DNA of 64,000 bases. Source: Eledone cirrhosa. Taxonomy: Eukaryota. Both the position numbers and the translations under genes were made by a program. The notes beneath the pieces were generated by a model that searched no databases, was not told the DNA's origin, and saw nothing but the letters and a program-made list of their open reading frames with translations. Shown here piece after piece: positions 1 through 62,007 of this stretch (position 1 is the first letter of the stretch; each line of letters starts with the position of its first letter). The stretch lies in contig OZ024742.1 in assembly GCA_964016885.1 (NCBI GenBank), forward strand, positions 109,988,001 to 110,052,000. Direction: 5' to 3'.

Positions 1-1181
1 GATTAAAGAAAATCTTTTGCCCTTATATAAATCATTTAACATTGCACTAAGGATTAGATTAGTGGCATCGGTGTTTAATTTTATAATATTTTACATAATG
101 TTTTACTTGAAAGTAGGGTAGTTAATAACCGTTTAAAATGTCTAACTGGACGAAGATGAATGAATTTAATCAGTCTTGCTACTTACGGACAAAATATCAA
201 TATTGCACAACGAAAATGACCGAGTGGATAAAAATACTGGATTATCAGAGCAGGAGGTTTCAATGAATTTTTAATGATTTCTTTTGCCTAACTCACACAC
301 ACACATACATCTATCTATCTATATATATATATAATGCAAACATAATCTATTAATGTACCTTGTGTTTAACCCTAAGCTTGGAGGGATTCGATAAAAATAG
401 ACCTAAGTTTTTCATTAGTAACCTGATATTTGGAGCATTAATTAACAAAAAGTTCTTAAAGGTTCTGTTTTAGGATCGAAGGAAGAAATGGACTTGGTCG
501 GTTTCGATGCTGAGTGTTCCAGTTCGATCAACAGAACAGTCTGCTTCTAAAATTAACGTATAAGGGAGATAGTGCATGACAAGGGCCATTCCTTTGAATT
601 ACAGGTAGAGTTCGTCAGACGGATTCCTCAAACAGTTTCTGTCTCTCCGATATCACTCACAAGACATAGGGCGACCCGAGGCTATGATAGAAGATACCAT
701 GCAATGTGATCGAAGCTGGGATCCAGTGATTACAAACTTAACCATTCGGTCATGTCGCGTCCTCTATTTTTTATTTTATTTTAGGATAGAAACAAACGAT
801 TTTTATCAAGGATATATTTCATGCATTTAGGCAACGAAGTACTGAATGCGAACAAGCTACATTGCAATTTTCACTAGCAACAAATATATAAATGGCGTTT
901 TAACTGTCCATACTCGAAAAACATGGGAGAGATATAAATGTTTCACACTACGAAATTGTTTTATTAGGAGAATCATTGGCCAGCCCTCTTCGTTTTAGGT
1001 CTAGGCAATGTAAACAATGACTTCGACAGTTTCCGTGCCGGAAGTTGCTTATTTTTGTCTATATATATATATAAGTAGAAGGGATATTTAATTTGTTGGA
1101 AATTCAACAAATATAAATGTTTATAACTGATTCAGATGGCATATATATATATGATGATATTAAATAAATGGAAACTATATT

Positions 1182-1243
1182 TATTCTATTAGATATATTT
1201 CAAGGGTACCAAAAACTTTGGTATGCTTTCATCAGATAAAATA
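1182..1243 (-). ncRNA. Type I hammerhead ribozyme motif
   Basis: Minus strand reads tattttat-CTGATGA-aagcataccaaagtttttggtaccctt-GAA-ATATATCT-A-atagaata. This gives an 8-bp stem I, the intact core, a stem II hairpin, a near-palindromic stem III and a CUA cleavage triplet. Confidence 0.7.
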
Positions 1244-1411
1244 CAAAGTGTGCTTTATAAATTTTGACATAGCCAAGGAAACATACCTTATCAGTTGAAT
1301 TTTCCTTGGATAATTCAACTGATAAGGTATGTTTCCTTGGATTTTCCAAGGAAAATTCAACTGATAAGGTATGTTTCCTTGGCTATGTCAAAATTTATAA
1401 AACACACTTTG

Positions 1412-1473
1412 TATTTTATCTGATGAAAGCGCACCAAAGTTTTTGGTACCCTTGAAATATATATACTAGAATA
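1412..1473 (+). ncRNA. Type I hammerhead ribozyme motif
   Basis: tattttat-CTGATGA(1420-1426)-aagcgcaccaaagtttttggtaccctt-GAAA(1454-1457), palindromic stem III ATATATAT, AUA triplet, then ctagaata (first stem I pair mismatched). AATAAA overlaps the end of stem I. Confidence 0.65.
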
Positions 1474-2158
1474 AATATAGTTTCCATTTATTTAATATCA
1501 TTGTGTATATATATATATATATAATTGAGGTGTATATGGATGCATATGTTTATGTATGATAAGCATATATGTCCCACTATGAGTGTTTTAAGCTGTGATC
1601 ATGTCACAGCTATCTCAGTGTAAGAACGCTATACACTTGTTTCAGGATTGTTAACATCATTAGGGACGTTTATTTGCATACATTGAGAGCTTGACTGGCT
1701 AGGATTAATTTGCAGTAGCTCTAAAAATAGTAACCAAATTTTCCTCAAATCAGACACTACTGCCATTTTACGAAAGGAATAGATACTTCAGATAACTGGC
1801 TGTTGAACTAATACAATGTGATTCAAAATAAGTGTATATGGAAATATATGTATGGACCTGTAACTTCTAGTGTAATTGTAGGGGTGTAGTAACATAGTGT
1901 CTTTGTTTTTTTTTTAAATTGCTAGAAATCATTTGCTCTCCGATTTCTTGCAGAGAAGGAATAGGGATTAAGAAAGAGATATTGAGGAAGAAGCAATCTT
2001 CCAAGTGGACTGGTAATTTATCGACCTTGAAAGGATGGGAAAAAAAGTTGACCTCGATGGGATTGGAACTCAGGGCACATTGTGCTGGAGTGAATATTAC
2101 AAAGCATTTTATCTGATGTTCTAATGACTATACCAATTTGTCACCCATGGAAACATAT

Positions 2159-40519: not shown

Positions 40520-41368
40520 ATCATCATCATCATCAACGTTTAACGTCCGTGTTCCACGCTTGCATGGGTTTGGACGGGGGTAGTCCCACTTGAGGCAAGA
40601 GTGATTGTCTTGCTCGCATAGGACTGTCTGGCAGGTTTTCTACAGTTGGATGCCCTTCCTAACACCAACCACATTTACAGTGTGGGTCTGGGAGGTTTTT
40701 ACCGTGTTGCCTACACGGCCACATTACAGCGTGGACTGTGTGTTTTTTTGTCGTGACACCTACACGATCTCATTTGTTTCGGCCTCGATGGCGCGGCACC
40801 AACATAACTTTACATAGAACGGGGTGGTGTGGATAGGGTGGGGGTGGTGGTGGTGAGACGGAGTGTATTTTGTTAGAGATGCCTACTGGCTGGAGTAGGT
40901 TTTACTATATATTTAGGTAAGGCGGGTCTTCTCTGTTACTGAGTACCGCCAAAGGTCTCGGTCCAGTGACATTGTCTTGGAGAGGTGTAAGTGTGTGATG
41001 TCGGAGTTTATCAGCTCGTCCCAGGTTTTTCTAGGTCTGCCTATTCCGTGACTACCGTCTATCTTTATTGCCCTGCACTTTGTTATACAGCTGTCGACTT
41101 TCATGCGCATCACGTGTCCATACCAACGTAGCCTTCTCTCGAGTAAACAACATCTGATCCCTCTTATTTCTAATTTTTTCCTTAGTTCGTTTATGCTTTG
41201 CCGTTCACGTATATTACTGTTACACATCCAGCGGAGCATGCAAGCTTCGTTCCTCTCTAGTCTGCGTATATCCTCTGCACACAATGCCCAGGTTTCACTG
41301 CCATGCAGCATTGCTGTTCGTATGCAGGCATCGTACAACCTGCCTTTCATTTTTAGGGAGAACATCAA
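40520..41368 (-). mobile_element. Young 5'-truncated RTE LINE (intact C-terminal ORF, 3'UTR, (GAT)n tail)
   Basis: ORF 40913-41368 has KGRLYDACIRTAMLHGSETW...RLRWYGHVMR...GRPRKTW. Confidence 0.92.
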
Positions 41369-52520: not shown

Positions 52521-53494
52521 TTCTCTAACATTTTATGAATAGATTCAAAATCTTCTGAAAGAGAAACATTTAAATTGTATTCATCAAGAATTTCCTTTAT
52601 GTTGTGCACATTAGGCTAGATGCTACTTCATTTATGAATGTACAATGATGATGTTGATGATGATAATGCTGCACTGTTAAATATTTTCCTATTTCTCCCT
52701 ACCCTACAACATATTTGACCCCTGTTTAGACAGCTTGTTGCTCTCCAAACATTGTTGATACTTCAAAAACAAAGAATTAACATTTTGTTATACTGTAATT
52801 ATTAAAAAACATAAAATACATTATTGTTAGTACTCTCCTTTCATCATTATATTTCTAATGAAATAAATAGTATTTCAATTAATATTTTTGATACCAAACC
52901 ACATAAAAACCACCCTTTGGTTTTGTTTTAAAGTGTTCATAGTTATCTAAAATCCCTCCATTATAATTTTAGAGTAGGAGTTTTATTTTGTTACCTGATT
53001 TAACCACCTCACTTATCCCTTAGGAGCCTTTAAAGGAGTAGTCTATAGCAAGTATTTGGACTAGTTTATTAGTTTGAGGATACTTTCCTTCTCTACATTA
53101 CCCTTCCTCTCGCTTAAGAGGCTGTGTAAAATGGAACCATAAGCATTGCCCTTCTTCCTGACAAAAAGCACCCAGTCTACTCTGTATGGTGGCAGGATTG
53201 GTGTCACAACAACAAAAAGCACCCAGTCCACTGTGTAAGGTGGTCAAGCTGGAGCCACTACAAAAAGCACCCTGCCCATAACTATAAAGAACCCAGTCCA
53301 TCCTATAAAGTGGTAGAGGTGCTGCCATGAAAAAAAGCTCCGAGTACACACTAATGTGGTTGGAAGGGAGTCCAACAGTATAAAACCAAGTCAAAAACAG
53401 ATCTGTATGATCAAGGCGCAGTCATCTGTCCTGGATAACCTCATAACAACCCATCTATCCCATGCTAACATGGAAAAGAGATGTTATTTATTTC

Positions 53495-54225
53495 ATCATC
53501 ATCATCGTTTAACGTCCATCTTCCACGCTTGCATGGGTTTGGACGGGAATTTTCCCACTTGAGGCAAGATTGGTTGTCTTGCTCGTATAGGACTGTCTGG
53601 CGAGTTTTCTACGGCTGGATGCCCTTCCTAACACCAACCACGTTTACAGTGTGGACTGGGAGGTTTTTACCGTGTTACCTACACGGCCACATTACAGCGT
53701 GGACTGGGTGTTTTTTTTTGTCGTGACAGCTACACGACCTCATTTGTTTACACCTCTCCAAGACACTGTCACTGGACCGAGATCTTTGGCGCTACGCAGT
53801 AATACAGAAGACCCGCCTTGCCTAAGTACAAAGCGAAACCTAGTCAGTAGGCACCTCTTAACCAAAATACACCCCCGTCCCACAACCTCTACCCCCACCC
53901 CCATCTACACCACCCCTTTCGATGTAAAGTTATGTTGGTACCACAACATCCAGTCCTAAATAAATGAGGTCGTGTAGGTGTCATGACAAAAAAAACACAG
54001 TCCACGCTGTAATGTGGCCGTGTAGGTAACACGGTAAAAACCTCCCAGTCTACACTGTAAACGTGGTTGGTGTTAGGAAGGGCATCCAGCCGTAGAAAAC
54101 CCGCCAGACAGTCCTATACGAGCAAGACAACCAATCTTGCCTCAAGTGGGACAGCTCCAGTCCAAACCCATGCTAGCGTGGAAGATGGACGTTAAACAAT
54201 GATGATGATGATGATGATGATGATG
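53495..54225. mobile_element. Two RTE 3' ends fused 5'-to-5' (inverted pair)
   Basis: 53495-53750 is the reverse complement of ~53960-54225, and the (GAT)n tails point outward. Confidence 0.9.
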
Positions 54226-58200: not shown

Positions 58201-58999
58201 AATATGGTCCAAATGTACAGTACATATACATGCATGCAAACAGACATGAAAAGATATATATATAAACATGAAAAAAAAAACACTTAAAAGTTGAAAAATA
58301 AGAATGAAGATAAACTATCAAAAGATGATCACTAGAAGAAAAAATATGGAAAATTTATAGGTTAAAAAAATGTTAAAAAGATATAAAGAATAAAAAATCA
58401 AAGATTTAAAATGTATATATAGATAGAAGACACACACAATTTGGATGAACGTGACTCTGCTGAGTTCCTCCACCCTTTGCTGGGTCTTGTATTTCATCTC
58501 ACAGGGTGTCCAAATATCACCTGATATCAAGCTTGGTGAGGGTGTGGGTTTAGTCACCAATGACCTGACCATGCGACAGGTTGTGCTGGGTTCCATGCTA
58601 CCAGTAGTACATGAGAGAAGGTTCCTTTTTAGACCCAGTCTTCACAACAAGAAAGATGAACAGACCTTTTCAACACTTAATTGCAAATTAGAAAATTTTT
58701 TATTCTTTTTAATTCTTTTAAATTCTTTTTAATTGTAATATTCAACATTTGATAAATTGGTTCACACTGATACATCAAAACTGGTTATCATCATCATCAT
58801 CATCATCTTCGTTTAACGTCCATTTTCCACGCTAGCATATATTTTATATACATTATAAAACTCCTTTTTTTAAAAAGAATTGTTCCTCTCATTTTTTCAA
58901 TAATGCCACTTTGATGAATCAAAGAAGAAAAAAACAAAAACAGATCCTTAAATTTATTTTTCGTGCTATTTCCAATTCTACCTTTTCTCTCTCTATATC

Positions 59000-59140: not shown

Positions 59141-59144
59141 ATAT

Positions 59145-60945
59145 GAGGGATCAGATGCTGTTTACTTGAGAGAAGATTACGTTGGTATGGTCACATGATG
59201 CGCATGAAAGACGACAGCTGCATAAAAAAATGCAGGACGATAAAAATAGACGGTAGCCACGGAGTAGGCAGACCCAGAAAAACCTGGGACGACTTGATAA
59301 ATTCCGACCTCACACACTTACACCTCTCCAAGACAATGTCACTGGACCGAGATCTTTGGCGCTACACAGTCTTACAGAAGACCCGCCTTGCCTAAGTACA
59401 AACCGAAACTTACAGTCAGTAGGCACCTCTAGCAAAATACCCCCCCCTCGTCCCACTACCCCCACCCCATCCACACCAGCCCCTTAAATGTGAAGTTATG
59501 TTGGTACCACAACATCGAGTCCGAAACAAATGAGGTCGTGTAGGTGTCACGACAAAAAAAAAAAAGCACACAGTCCAGCTGTAATGTGGCCGTGTAGGTA
59601 ACACGGTAAAAACAGTCCACACTGTAAACGTGGTTGGTGTTAGGAAGGGCATCCAGCCGTAGAAAACCCGCCAGACAGTCCTATACGAGCAGGACAACAA
59701 AACTTGCTTCAAGTGGGAAACCTCCCGTCCAAACCCATGCAAGCGTGGAAGATGGACGTTAAACGATGATGATGATGATGTATATATATATGTATGGAAG
59801 CAGAGACTAGAAAGAAAGGGTCTCAAAGTCAACCTGACAAAGACTAAGGTCCTTGTAAGTAGACGAGAAAACAGAACCCAGATGCTCTCAGGGTAATGGC
59901 CTTGCTCAGTATATAGGAAAGGTGTAGGTAGGAACTCCATCTTCTGCCCCAAATGCAAACAATGAGAACACAAGAGATGTAGTGGGATCTCAGGAAGCTT
60001 AACTAAGAATGTAGGCTTCACATGTAGCAGCTGTGCTGGGGAAGCATGCAACAAACAGCCACAGGAAACAAGCACCACCAAACTCTGGGAGGGCTCTGTA
60101 GAAACAGTAGACAGCTTCTGCTACCTAGGTGACTGAATTAGCAGTGGAGGTGGGTATTCGGAAAGTACAATAACTAGGGTAAGAACGGGATAGAAGAAGT
60201 TCAGGGAGCTATTGTTACTGCTAGCTGCAAAAGGCTTTTCCCTCAAAATGAAGGGCAGACTGTATGATGCGTGTATACGAACAGCAATGTTACATGGTAG
60301 TGAGACCTAGGCGCTGTCTGTAGAAGACTTGCGTAGATTAGAAAGAAACAAAGCCTGCATGCTCCGATGGATGTGTAATAGTAATATACGAGAACAGCAA
60401 AGCATAAACGAATTGAGAGAGAGACTGAGCATAAGAGGAATCAAATGCTGTGTGCAGGAGAGGAGGTTGCATTGGTATGGATATGTGATGCGTATGAAGG
60501 ATGACAGCTGCATAAAAAGGTGCAGAGCACTAGAAGTCGATGGAAACCGCGGAGTGGGGAGACCCAAGAAGACCTGGGATGAGGTGATAAAAGCCGGCCT
60601 TACCCAATTACACCTCTCAAAGGCGATGACACATGACCGTGACCTCTGGCGTCACGCAGTAATACAGAAGACCCGACCCCCCACAGGTACAAGCTGAAGC
60701 ATATAGACAATATGCCCCCACCCCCTCCCTCTGCAAAGTGGTCGTGGAGGTGCTACAGCAAAAAAGCACCCAGCCTACACTGTAAAGTGGACGTGTAGGC
60801 GCCACGGAAAAAAGCACCCAGCACTCACTGTAAATGAGGTTGGTGTTAGGAAGACATGGTCAGCCGACAGGCAACTGCCCACAACAGGACAACCCGTCTA
60901 ACCCATGCTAGCGTGGAAGAACGGGCGTAAAACGGTGATGATGAA
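59145..60945 (+). mobile_element. Two tandem 5'-truncated RTE copies (59145-59780 and 59790-60945)
   Basis: ORFs 59195-59395 and 60329-60697 (RLHWYGYVMR...GRPKKTW), each followed by a 3'UTR and a (GAT)n tail. Confidence 0.9.
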
Positions 60946-61430: not shown

Positions 61431-61467
61431 AAAAAAAATATGTATATATATATATGTATTTATATAT

Positions 61468-61501
<34 letters not shown>

Positions 61502-61548
61502 ACACAATGATATTAACTAAATGGAAACTATATTTATAAAACTATATT

Positions 61549-61609
61549 TATTCTATTTTATATATTTCAAGAGTACCAAAACTTTGGTACGCTCTCATCA
61601 GATAAAATA
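61549..61609 (-). ncRNA. Hammerhead ribozyme motif, probably impaired
   Basis: CTGATGA, stem II and GAAA are intact, but GAAATATATAAAATAG lacks the U of the NUH triplet seen in the sister arm. Confidence 0.5.
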
Positions 61610-61731
61610 CAAAGTTTGTTTTATAAATATTGACATATCCAGGAAGAAGATCTTAACGGGTCAAGTTTTTCCTGGATAGGCCAGGAAAAACTTGAACCAT
61701 TAAGATCTTCTTATTTATAAAACAAACTTTG

Positions 61732-61792
61732 TATTTTATCTGATGAGAGCGTACCAAAGTTTTGGTACCCTTGAAATATATATAATAGAATA
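61732..61792 (+). ncRNA. Type I hammerhead ribozyme motif (best preserved)
   Basis: tattttat-CTGATGA(61740-61746)-gagc gtaccaa agtt ttggtac cctt-GAAA(61773-61776), stem III ATATATAT, AUA cleavage site after 61784, and atagaata completing an 8-bp stem I. Confidence 0.78.
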
Positions 61793-61964
61793 AATATGGT
61801 TTTATAAATATAGTTTCCATTTAGTTAATATAATTGAATATTATAATATTATACTCCAGAAAACCCGTCGAGTGCTCCAAATCATGCTAGCGTGGAAGAT
61901 GGACGTTAAACGAAGATGATGATGATGATTTGTTGAATTACCAACAAATTAAATATCCCTTTTG

Positions 61965-62007
<43 letters not shown>

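What the first reader, a model, noticed from the sequence alone, without database searches (positions are those of the whole stretch)
61500..61836. Second palindrome carries the best-formed hammerhead, and its differences from copy 1 are mirrored in both arms
Seen: 61732-61792 has a full 8-bp stem I, an intact core, a self-complementary ATATATAT stem III and an AUA site. Features specific to copy 2 appear in both of its arms and in neither arm of copy 1. These are a ~14-bp aaactatatttat duplication, gagc instead of aagc in stem II, and a very different inner arm (ccaggaagaagatcttaacgggtcaag versus ccaaggaaacataccttatcagttgaa). The ribozyme region is more conserved between copies than the inner arm. 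Inference: each palindrome was generated from one template variant at insertion, or homogenised by intra-hairpin repair, and the ribozyme was under selection in the active family.
Basis: partly seen in the sequence, partly recalled or inferred. Interest (0 to 1): 0.75.

Follow-up and report, generated by a model that had tools for sequence, protein, structure and literature searches.

The report
Back-to-back Penelope retrotransposon ends with hammerhead
This DNA palindrome is one of over a thousand back-to-back stumps of a Penelope-type jumping gene carrying a predicted self-cutting RNA motif; most of its 'mirrored' traits are simply subfamily traits, and both halves were likely copied from one capped RNA onto the two ends of a single DNA cut.

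Summary
The palindrome and hammerhead are real. The right arm (61732-61792) is the only intact type I hammerhead of the four arms, but it is just the unmutated subfamily sequence (39 exact copies among fetched loci). The element is the 3' end (pLTR) of a Hydra-clade Penelope-like retrotransposon: long copies run into an RT plus GIY-YIG ORF. At least 1,009 head-to-head palindromes occur genome-wide. The three 'mirrored' traits are subfamily traits; the 14-bp 'duplication' is the family norm, which copy 1 lost. Only one rare base is privately mirrored. Arms cluster by locus, not by side. 83 of 88 arm 3' ends fall at two sites, 86 of 96 palindromes carry the tail on one arm, 42 of 88 5' ends sit at one A, and an extra G often precedes it (30 of 72 junctions versus 0 of 33 long copies). 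Best reading: both target strands prime reverse transcription of one capped, uncleaved RNA. Stem II covaries across subfamilies, but inserted copies decay neutrally. Later arm-to-arm conversion may explain private mirrored variants. The scan reported the same architecture before on other DNA of this genome. Known kind, new family.

The parts
61437..61504 (.). (TA)n-rich target, left flank (itself at the end of a SINE-like repeat)
   Evidence: sequence
61505..61679 (-). left arm, tail-less, element positions +2 to +176 (+1 = A of the ACTATCC start site)
61549..61609 (-). left hammerhead, U16.1 changed to A at 61558, predicted inactive
61630..61679 (-).
   Evidence: fold z -3.4 for 61630-61678
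61680..61680 (.). single unmatched base at the head-to-head junction
   Evidence: sequence
61681..61836 (+). right arm, +6 to +176, with a 15-nt deletion after 61711
61732..61792 (+). intact type I hammerhead with short palindromic stem III; predicted cut after 61784
61712..61810 (+). predicted distal extension of helix I, 61712-61723 pairing with 61799-61810; its 3' strand lies in the '14-bp duplication'
   Evidence: folds
61824..61824 (+). the one rare variant mirrored in both arms (T>G; partner at 61517)
61837..61965 (+). PLE tail (+177 to +268), on this arm only, with an 8-nt duplication at its start
61884..61929 (+). later insertion of the 3' end of an unrelated SINE-like repeat, replacing about 16 nt of tail
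   Evidence: 98% match to 58793-58838 and other window copies
61966..62007 (.). (TA)n target, right flank
   Evidence: sequence
1068..1514 (.). copy 1: same architecture, another subfamily; tail on the left arm, 14-nt deletion in both arms, extra hairpin fragment at the junction

Best explanation
The palindrome is a pair of short 3'-end (pLTR) copies of a Hydra-clade Penelope-like retrotransposon joined head to head in a (TA)n tract, and it was likely made in one insertion event in which both cut target strands primed reverse transcription of the same capped, uncleaved RNA. Shown: family membership, two fixed 3' ends (+176 and +268), tail on one arm, 5' ends piling up at +1, arms alike within a locus, hammerhead structure conserved between subfamilies. 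Inferred: the enzyme nicks both strands; one end primes at the tail end and the other about 90 nt upstream, each through short TA-like homology; both cDNAs run to the RNA's 5' end, where the cap is often copied as an extra G; the two cDNA ends are joined by microhomology. Short palindromes would come from priming in the upstream pLTR of the transcript, long copies from the downstream pLTR. After insertion the hammerheads decay neutrally, and occasional arm-to-arm conversion probably adds some private mirrored variants.
For: Long copies run from the same arm through about 1.1 kb of UTR into a GIY-YIG and RT ORF on the same strand; tandem copies show pLTR, tail, then the ORF start. Hydra motifs present: DKT, CxCX5C, CxxC/CxH, RWR, (TA)n target (against PMC8557442 section 11). 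83 of 88 segments from 51 loci chosen without regard to architecture end at +170-186 or +257-268, and 42 of 88 begin at -5 to +17. Tail on exactly one arm in 86 of 96 short palindromes. Either arm can be the longer one, so neither is a simple copy of the other. G before +1 in 30 of 72 junctions versus 0 of 33 long copies, and in 14 of 17 blunt junctions. Within-locus distance 0.047 vs 0.13-0.14 across loci; nearest foreign arm shares tail state in 68 of 142. Mirrored rare variants are as frequent in arms over 600 bp apart (10 per 2,106 sites) as in tight palindromes (76 per 17,255). In vitro, an anole PLE cuts and extends both strands, starts at two internal sites bounding the tail, and does not need hammerhead cleavage (PMC11167929).
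Against: No RNA was seen; the start site and cap are inferred from DNA junctions. In 19 of the G junctions the G could also be read from the opposite arm. Three multi-variant mirrored haplotypes have no parent or sibling in the assembly, mirrored variants have a neutral spectrum and hit the catalytic core, and mirrored and unshared counts are weakly anticorrelated (rho -0.19, p 0.03); all fit later conversion. Some loci differ between arms at common polymorphisms, and 4 of 96 have a tail on both arms. One RNA cannot be told from two RNAs of one source locus. Copy 2's own arms are not nearest neighbours (61 and 46 other arms closer, partly through its 15-nt deletion). Some long-spaced pairs may be unrelated neighbours.
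Confidence: 0.7

Rival explanations
1. Arms were homogenised after insertion by hairpin or template-switch repair, and this is the main source of within-locus similarity.
For: Private mirrored haplotypes without parents; neutral spectrum including core hits; weak negative correlation; loci with mirrored tails and flanks such as L013. Homogenisation of inverted-repeat arms is described in PMC8604942 (abstract start only).
Against: Most rare variants are not mirrored (72 mirrored vs 367 unshared), too little to turn unrelated subfamilies into matched arms (73 of 78 same cluster vs 34.5 by permutation). The mirrored rate does not fall with spacers over 600 bp. It does not explain the fixed ends or one-sided tail. 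As a partial contributor to private variants I put it near 0.45.
Confidence: 0.15
2. Fold-back self-priming: one cDNA (or an antisense template, as proposed in PMC3846280) snaps back at the 5' stem-loop and copies itself.
For: A stem-loop sits at the junction in most subfamilies (z below -1.6 in 11 of 13); this route would mirror RT errors and need no parent.
Against: The stem-loop appears twice, once per arm, rather than once at the centre. The tail-less arm is often much longer than the tailed arm, and the tailed arm has sequence the other lacks. The extra G points to a capped sense RNA.
Confidence: 0.1
3. Two separate RNAs from one active source, perhaps held together through the self-complementary stem III, each template one arm.
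For: ATATATAT can pair with itself (-3.2 kcal/mol) and minimal PLE hammerheads are proposed to work as dimers (PMC4209133); a few loci are discordant at common polymorphisms.
Against: Concordance is high at those sites and rare variants are mirrored; dimer formation is untested. This is a variant of the best explanation, not an alternative family assignment.
Confidence: 0.2
4. The palindrome itself is the mobile unit (MITE-like or retrozyme-like) and is copied whole.
For: Over 1,000 palindromes of similar size.
Against: Junctions differ from locus to locus; arms do not cluster by side or tail state; the same arms continue into the PLE ORF in long copies; no tandem monomer arrays of this unit were seen in the fetched loci.
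Confidence: 0.02

Closest known systems
Hydra clade of C-terminal EN+ Penelope-like elements (Craig et al. 2021, PMC8557442)
   Same: RT then GIY-YIG; DKT, CxCX5C linker, CxxC/CxH, RW(K/R); hammerhead near the 3' end; (TA)n target; inverted 5'-truncated copy at the 5' end; one-sided tail.
   Different: A different family from Hydra-1_Obim, whose listed hammerhead sequence is unrelated. About 1.1 kb of UTR precedes the pLTR, and the tail is about 92 nt rather than 30-40.
Poseidon PAc of the green anole (Frangieh et al. 2024, PMC11167929)
   Same: Two initiation sites bounding the tail, AT-rich target, copies that read through an uncleaved hammerhead.
   Different: Other clade; here hammerhead and tail lie upstream of the ATG (about 58 nt after the tail), not inside the ORF; no biochemistry here.
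Minimal PLE hammerheads (Cervera and de la Pena 2014, PMC4209133)
   Same: Type I, long stem II, short palindromic stem III; pairs on opposite strands 100-700 bp apart are mentioned there.
   Different: 8-bp stem I plus a predicted 12-bp distal helix; A-U or G-U rather than G-C at the base of stem II in the main subfamilies; invariant C-C mismatch in stem II.
Adineta vaga Penelope elements (Arkhipova et al. 2013, PMC3846280)
   Same: Head-to-head inverted pLTRs, a palindrome at the pLTR 5' end, a TCACT initiator-like word.
   Different: That paper favours self-priming on an antisense template; the junctions here fit double priming on a capped sense RNA better.
Animal non-LTR retrozymes (bioRxiv 10.64898/2026.07.22.740005; PMC7229834 listing only)
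   Same: Short non-coding units with a type I hammerhead, related to pLTRs.
   Different: Retrozymes are tandem arrays; these are inverted pairs of truncated autonomous-element ends.

Membership tests
Penelope-like elements, EN+ | single ORF with RT and C-terminal GIY-YIG endonuclease linked to this end | tested here: met
   637-aa frame in L178 with YRDD and YVG/FKxRxxNH motifs, upstream of a copy-1-type arm; copy-2-type arms linked in L061, L062, L064. Pfam itself gave only a weak RVT_1 hit and none for L178; the best homologue carries GIY-YIG.
Penelope-like elements, EN+ | partial tandem (pLTR-ORF-pLTR) and inverted 5'-truncated copies | tested here: met
   L317, L319, L326, L335 tandem; inverted partners in most of 40 long loci
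Penelope-like elements, EN+ | tail on one end only | tested here: met
   95 of 110 pairs; 86 of 96 short palindromes
Hydra clade | DKT, CxCX5C linker, CxxC and CxH around the EN E and N, RWK | tested here: met
   KSDKTNN, CNCRIKSNC, CKLC/CHLC, SCRH; RWR in place of RWK, as in homologue P0002, while other homologues have RWK
Hydra clade | insertion into (TA)n | tested here: met
   flanks of both window copies and most loci
Hydra clade | placement in an RT tree with named Hydra elements | not tested
   no named Hydra proteins were fetched
Type I hammerhead ribozyme | CUGANGA / GAAA core, three stems, NUH site | tested here: met
Type I hammerhead ribozyme | match to an Rfam hammerhead model | tested here: not met
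   no hit at gathering score or E up to 10
Type I hammerhead ribozyme | self-cleavage | not testable with these tools
   copies rarely start (2 of 88) and never end (0 of 88) at the cut site
Non-LTR retrozyme | tandem monomers each with a hammerhead | tested here: not met
   inverted pairs and ORF-linked copies instead

The most novel reading that the evidence does not exclude
The private variants mirrored in both arms (about 0.4% per site, no parent found in 3 of 3 haplotype searches, independent of spacer length, not A-to-I) arose in the RNA or cDNA intermediate just before insertion. That would mean Penelope mobilisation includes a highly mutagenic copying step, such as the RNA-to-RNA step speculated on in PMC4209133, and that each palindrome records both the capped start of the RNA and the errors of that step.
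Probability: 0.12. Interest if true: 0.75.

Novelty: new member of a known kind. Interest (0 to 1): 0.38.

Why it matters
How Penelope-like elements build their inverted ends, and which RNA strand they copy, is stated as open in PMC8557442 and PMC3846280. A family with over a thousand two-armed stumps gives a large natural record: two priming sites, a sharp 5' stop with an extra G, and matched arms. It predicts a specific start site and a double-primed product that can be tested with an existing in vitro system. The locus itself is an ordinary dead copy, and the architecture, clade and hammerhead are known.

Tried and rejected
Rfam: no hammerhead match; miRNA-like hits only reflect the hairpin. 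Unconstrained folds do not give the hammerhead conformation; a core-open fold of the right arm costs 0.7 kcal/mol, and a transcript through both arms folds into one long duplex. RNAalifold found no consensus structure for the 5' stem-loop in 13 gappy sequences, so its conservation rests on single folds. A-to-I editing as the source of mirrored variants: rejected for this sample, 6 A>G vs 13 T>C. Selection on the core among mirrored variants: not found (Fisher p 0.63 and 0.67). A parent for copy 2's T>G: 24 exact hits genome-wide, the other 22 scattered over subfamilies, none as a second exact pair. 3' splice site at the polypyrimidine tract before +1: rejected, the AG is not kept across subfamilies. 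RNA runs: no RNA holder listed. Laying four contig sets was uninformative for this locus because family members swamp it. Target-site duplication: not readable in (TA)n.

Full report
Observation. The window holds two related palindromes, at 1141-1514 and 61500-61841. In the second, the right arm carries a complete type I hammerhead at 61732-61792: an 8-bp stem I with one G-U pair, CUGAUGA, a stem II with a C-C mismatch, GAAA, ATATATAT and an AUA site, so the predicted cut follows 61784. The other three arms each have a damaging change. Rfam does not recognise the motif.

The traits are subfamily traits. The genome is 3.0 Gb; an earlier AI note calls it octopus, which I did not test. A 29-mer with the GAG stem II has 1,268 exact hits. 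The 30 best loci for the right arm carry copy 2's inner arm and the 14-nt repeat, apart from small deletions in single arms (part's output was cut). The 61-nt hammerhead occurs unchanged 39 times among the fetched loci. Only 11 of 437 arms lack the repeat; two are copy 1's, the other nine are single arms at nine loci. So copy 1 lost 14 nt in both arms, and copy 2 gained nothing. The repeat holds the 3' strand of a predicted 12-bp extension of helix I. Copy 2 has one rare mirrored base (61824 / 61517); the 31-mer holding it has 24 hits genome-wide and forms a two-arm pair only here.

What the element is. Long copies continue upstream through about 1.1 kb of AT-rich sequence into a GIY-YIG endonuclease and RT frame on the same strand. 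L178 holds a 637-aa frame between an inverted arm and a tailed pLTR, with 885 homologues among 7,991 scored candidates. The motifs match the Hydra clade as defined in PMC8557442 section 11: DKT, CxCX5C, CxxC and CxH, RWR for RWK, and (TA)n targets. That paper's supplement lists an octopus Hydra element with a different hammerhead. Tandem copies give the unit order: start site, stem-loop, hammerhead, tail, ATG about 58 nt later, ORF, UTR.

Architecture. An exact two-anchor pattern finds 1,009 head-to-head palindromes with a 112-140 nt gap, a lower bound. In 51 loci picked by a hammerhead or tail word rather than by shape, 83 of 88 segments end at one of two sites (+170-186, 44; +257-268, 39) and 42 of 88 begin at -5 to +17; 2 begin and none end at the ribozyme cut. 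About 21 of 30 tail-anchored loci show an inverted partner, counted by eye. The tail is on exactly one arm in 86 of 96 short palindromes, on both in 4, on neither in 6. Copy 2 fits: left arm +2 to +176, right arm +6 to +268, with a 15-nt deletion and a later SINE-like insertion in the tail. Both priming points are followed in the element by short TA-rich words that resemble the target. Either arm may be the long one.

The 5' stop. In long copies the base before the A of ACTATCC is T or C (33 of 33; six loci were assigned to this class by hand). In junction copies it is G in 32 of 74 rows, or 30 of 72 after counting one apparently triplicated insertion once; among blunt junctions 14 of 17. G makes up 17-19% of the opposing strand; the binomial p against 25% is 1e-6 for the blunt set and 1e-3 overall. 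From recalled knowledge, reverse transcriptases add a base opposite the mRNA cap, so I read +1 as a capped start. In 19 cases the G can also be read from the other arm, where it would act as one base of microhomology. D. virilis Penelope has an internal promoter with an initiator (PMC2377424, passages), and A. vaga pLTRs have a TCACT word (PMC3846280, passages and Discussion). No RNA was available.

Do arms cluster by locus? Yes. Among 78 palindromes with both arms aligned, within-locus distance is 0.047 against 0.132-0.141 across loci; 73 of 78 pairs share a cluster (34.5 by permutation); the nearest foreign arm has the same tail state in 68 of 142 cases. Within three subfamilies sampled with anchors outside the hammerhead (36, 34 and 35 loci), shared substitutions are 25, 24 and 37 against permutation means of 2.7, 4.8 and 3.7. 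The partner is the strict nearest neighbour in only 49 of 156 arms, and not for copy 2.

Template or repair? For origin at insertion: rare mirrored variants are as dense in 21 pairs over 600 bp apart (10 per 2,106 sites) as in 160 tight pairs (76 per 17,255); five pairs at 200-600 bp had none in 473 sites; Fisher p 0.86. A few of the long pairs may be unrelated neighbours. For later conversion: three multi-variant haplotypes occur only in their own two arms, the mirrored spectrum resembles the unshared one and includes core hits, and the two counts are weakly anticorrelated in 133 pairs. I conclude that one template sets the match and that conversion probably adds some private variants; the source of these is unresolved.

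Selection on the ribozyme. Across 14 natural copies chosen to represent clusters (three from the two window subfamilies), the core is invariant, 96.9% of cells pair, and 5 of 6 stem II pairs change on both sides; 0 of 500 shuffles reach the number of such cells, 39 of 500 the number of pairs. Related sequences can beat such shuffles, but slid controls fall to 39-59% paired. Inserted copies decay evenly: the core is 10.2% of sites and takes 36 of 367 unshared rare changes. Flanks are as conserved as the hammerhead, and the variable inner arm still folds into a stem-loop in most subfamilies (no consensus by RNAalifold). In its locus the intact hammerhead would be trapped in the arm-to-arm duplex if both arms were transcribed.

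Comparison. Inverted truncated copies and one-sided tails are standard for PLEs (PMC8557442, passages, section 11 and supplement part 2 of 59). Hammerheads with palindromic stem III and opposite-strand pairs are in PMC4209133 (parts 1-2 of 4). Two-strand extension, two internal starts and dispensable cleavage are in PMC11167929 (parts 1-2 of 4). Retrozymes (bioRxiv 10.64898/2026.07.22.740005, parts 1-2 of 5) are tandem and do not fit. Searches listed no paper on this family or on an extra G at PLE junctions; one search showed 12 of 159 papers. The unread supplement parts and repeat libraries may already hold the family. Five earlier notes of this scan describe the same architecture in other families of this genome; a look-up by this sequence found nothing.

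Verdict. Real, well formed, and explained as a stump of a known class. New member of a known kind; interest 0.38, for the testable mechanism rather than the locus.

Noticed in passing
window 1313-1345: Copy 1's junction holds a third, partial copy of the 5' stem-loop; similar re-primed fragments occur at junctions of L024, L137, L173.
   Followed up: no
window 61884-61929: A 46-nt 3' end of an abundant SINE-like repeat ending in (GAT)n has inserted into the PLE tail with a deletion of about 16 nt.
   Followed up: partly
L013:1312-1780, L071, L323: Tail on both arms, in L013 with mirrored flanking bases and nearly identical arms: candidates for whole-arm fold-back repair or assembly artefact.
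   Followed up: partly
L063:4840-5060: A long internal palindrome inside the UTR of a near full-length copy, suggesting a fold-back during copying.
   Followed up: no
L274:43-1537, L262:1022-1537, L331:521-976: Clusters of nested arms, some restarting near the hammerhead core or cut site; the family often inserts into its own (TA)n flanks.
   Followed up: no
alignment A2: An invariant C-C mismatch three pairs into stem II is kept in all 14 representative hammerheads while the pairs around it covary.
   Followed up: partly
window 53493-54211 and 59613-59786; 40895-41362 and 59141-60675: Inverted copies of SINE-like and RTE-like LINE repeats; unrelated to the hammerhead family.
   Followed up: no
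L177:1-2594: A second, GC-rich Penelope-like ORF of another clade (DKG motif) lies beside a copy of this family.
   Followed up: no
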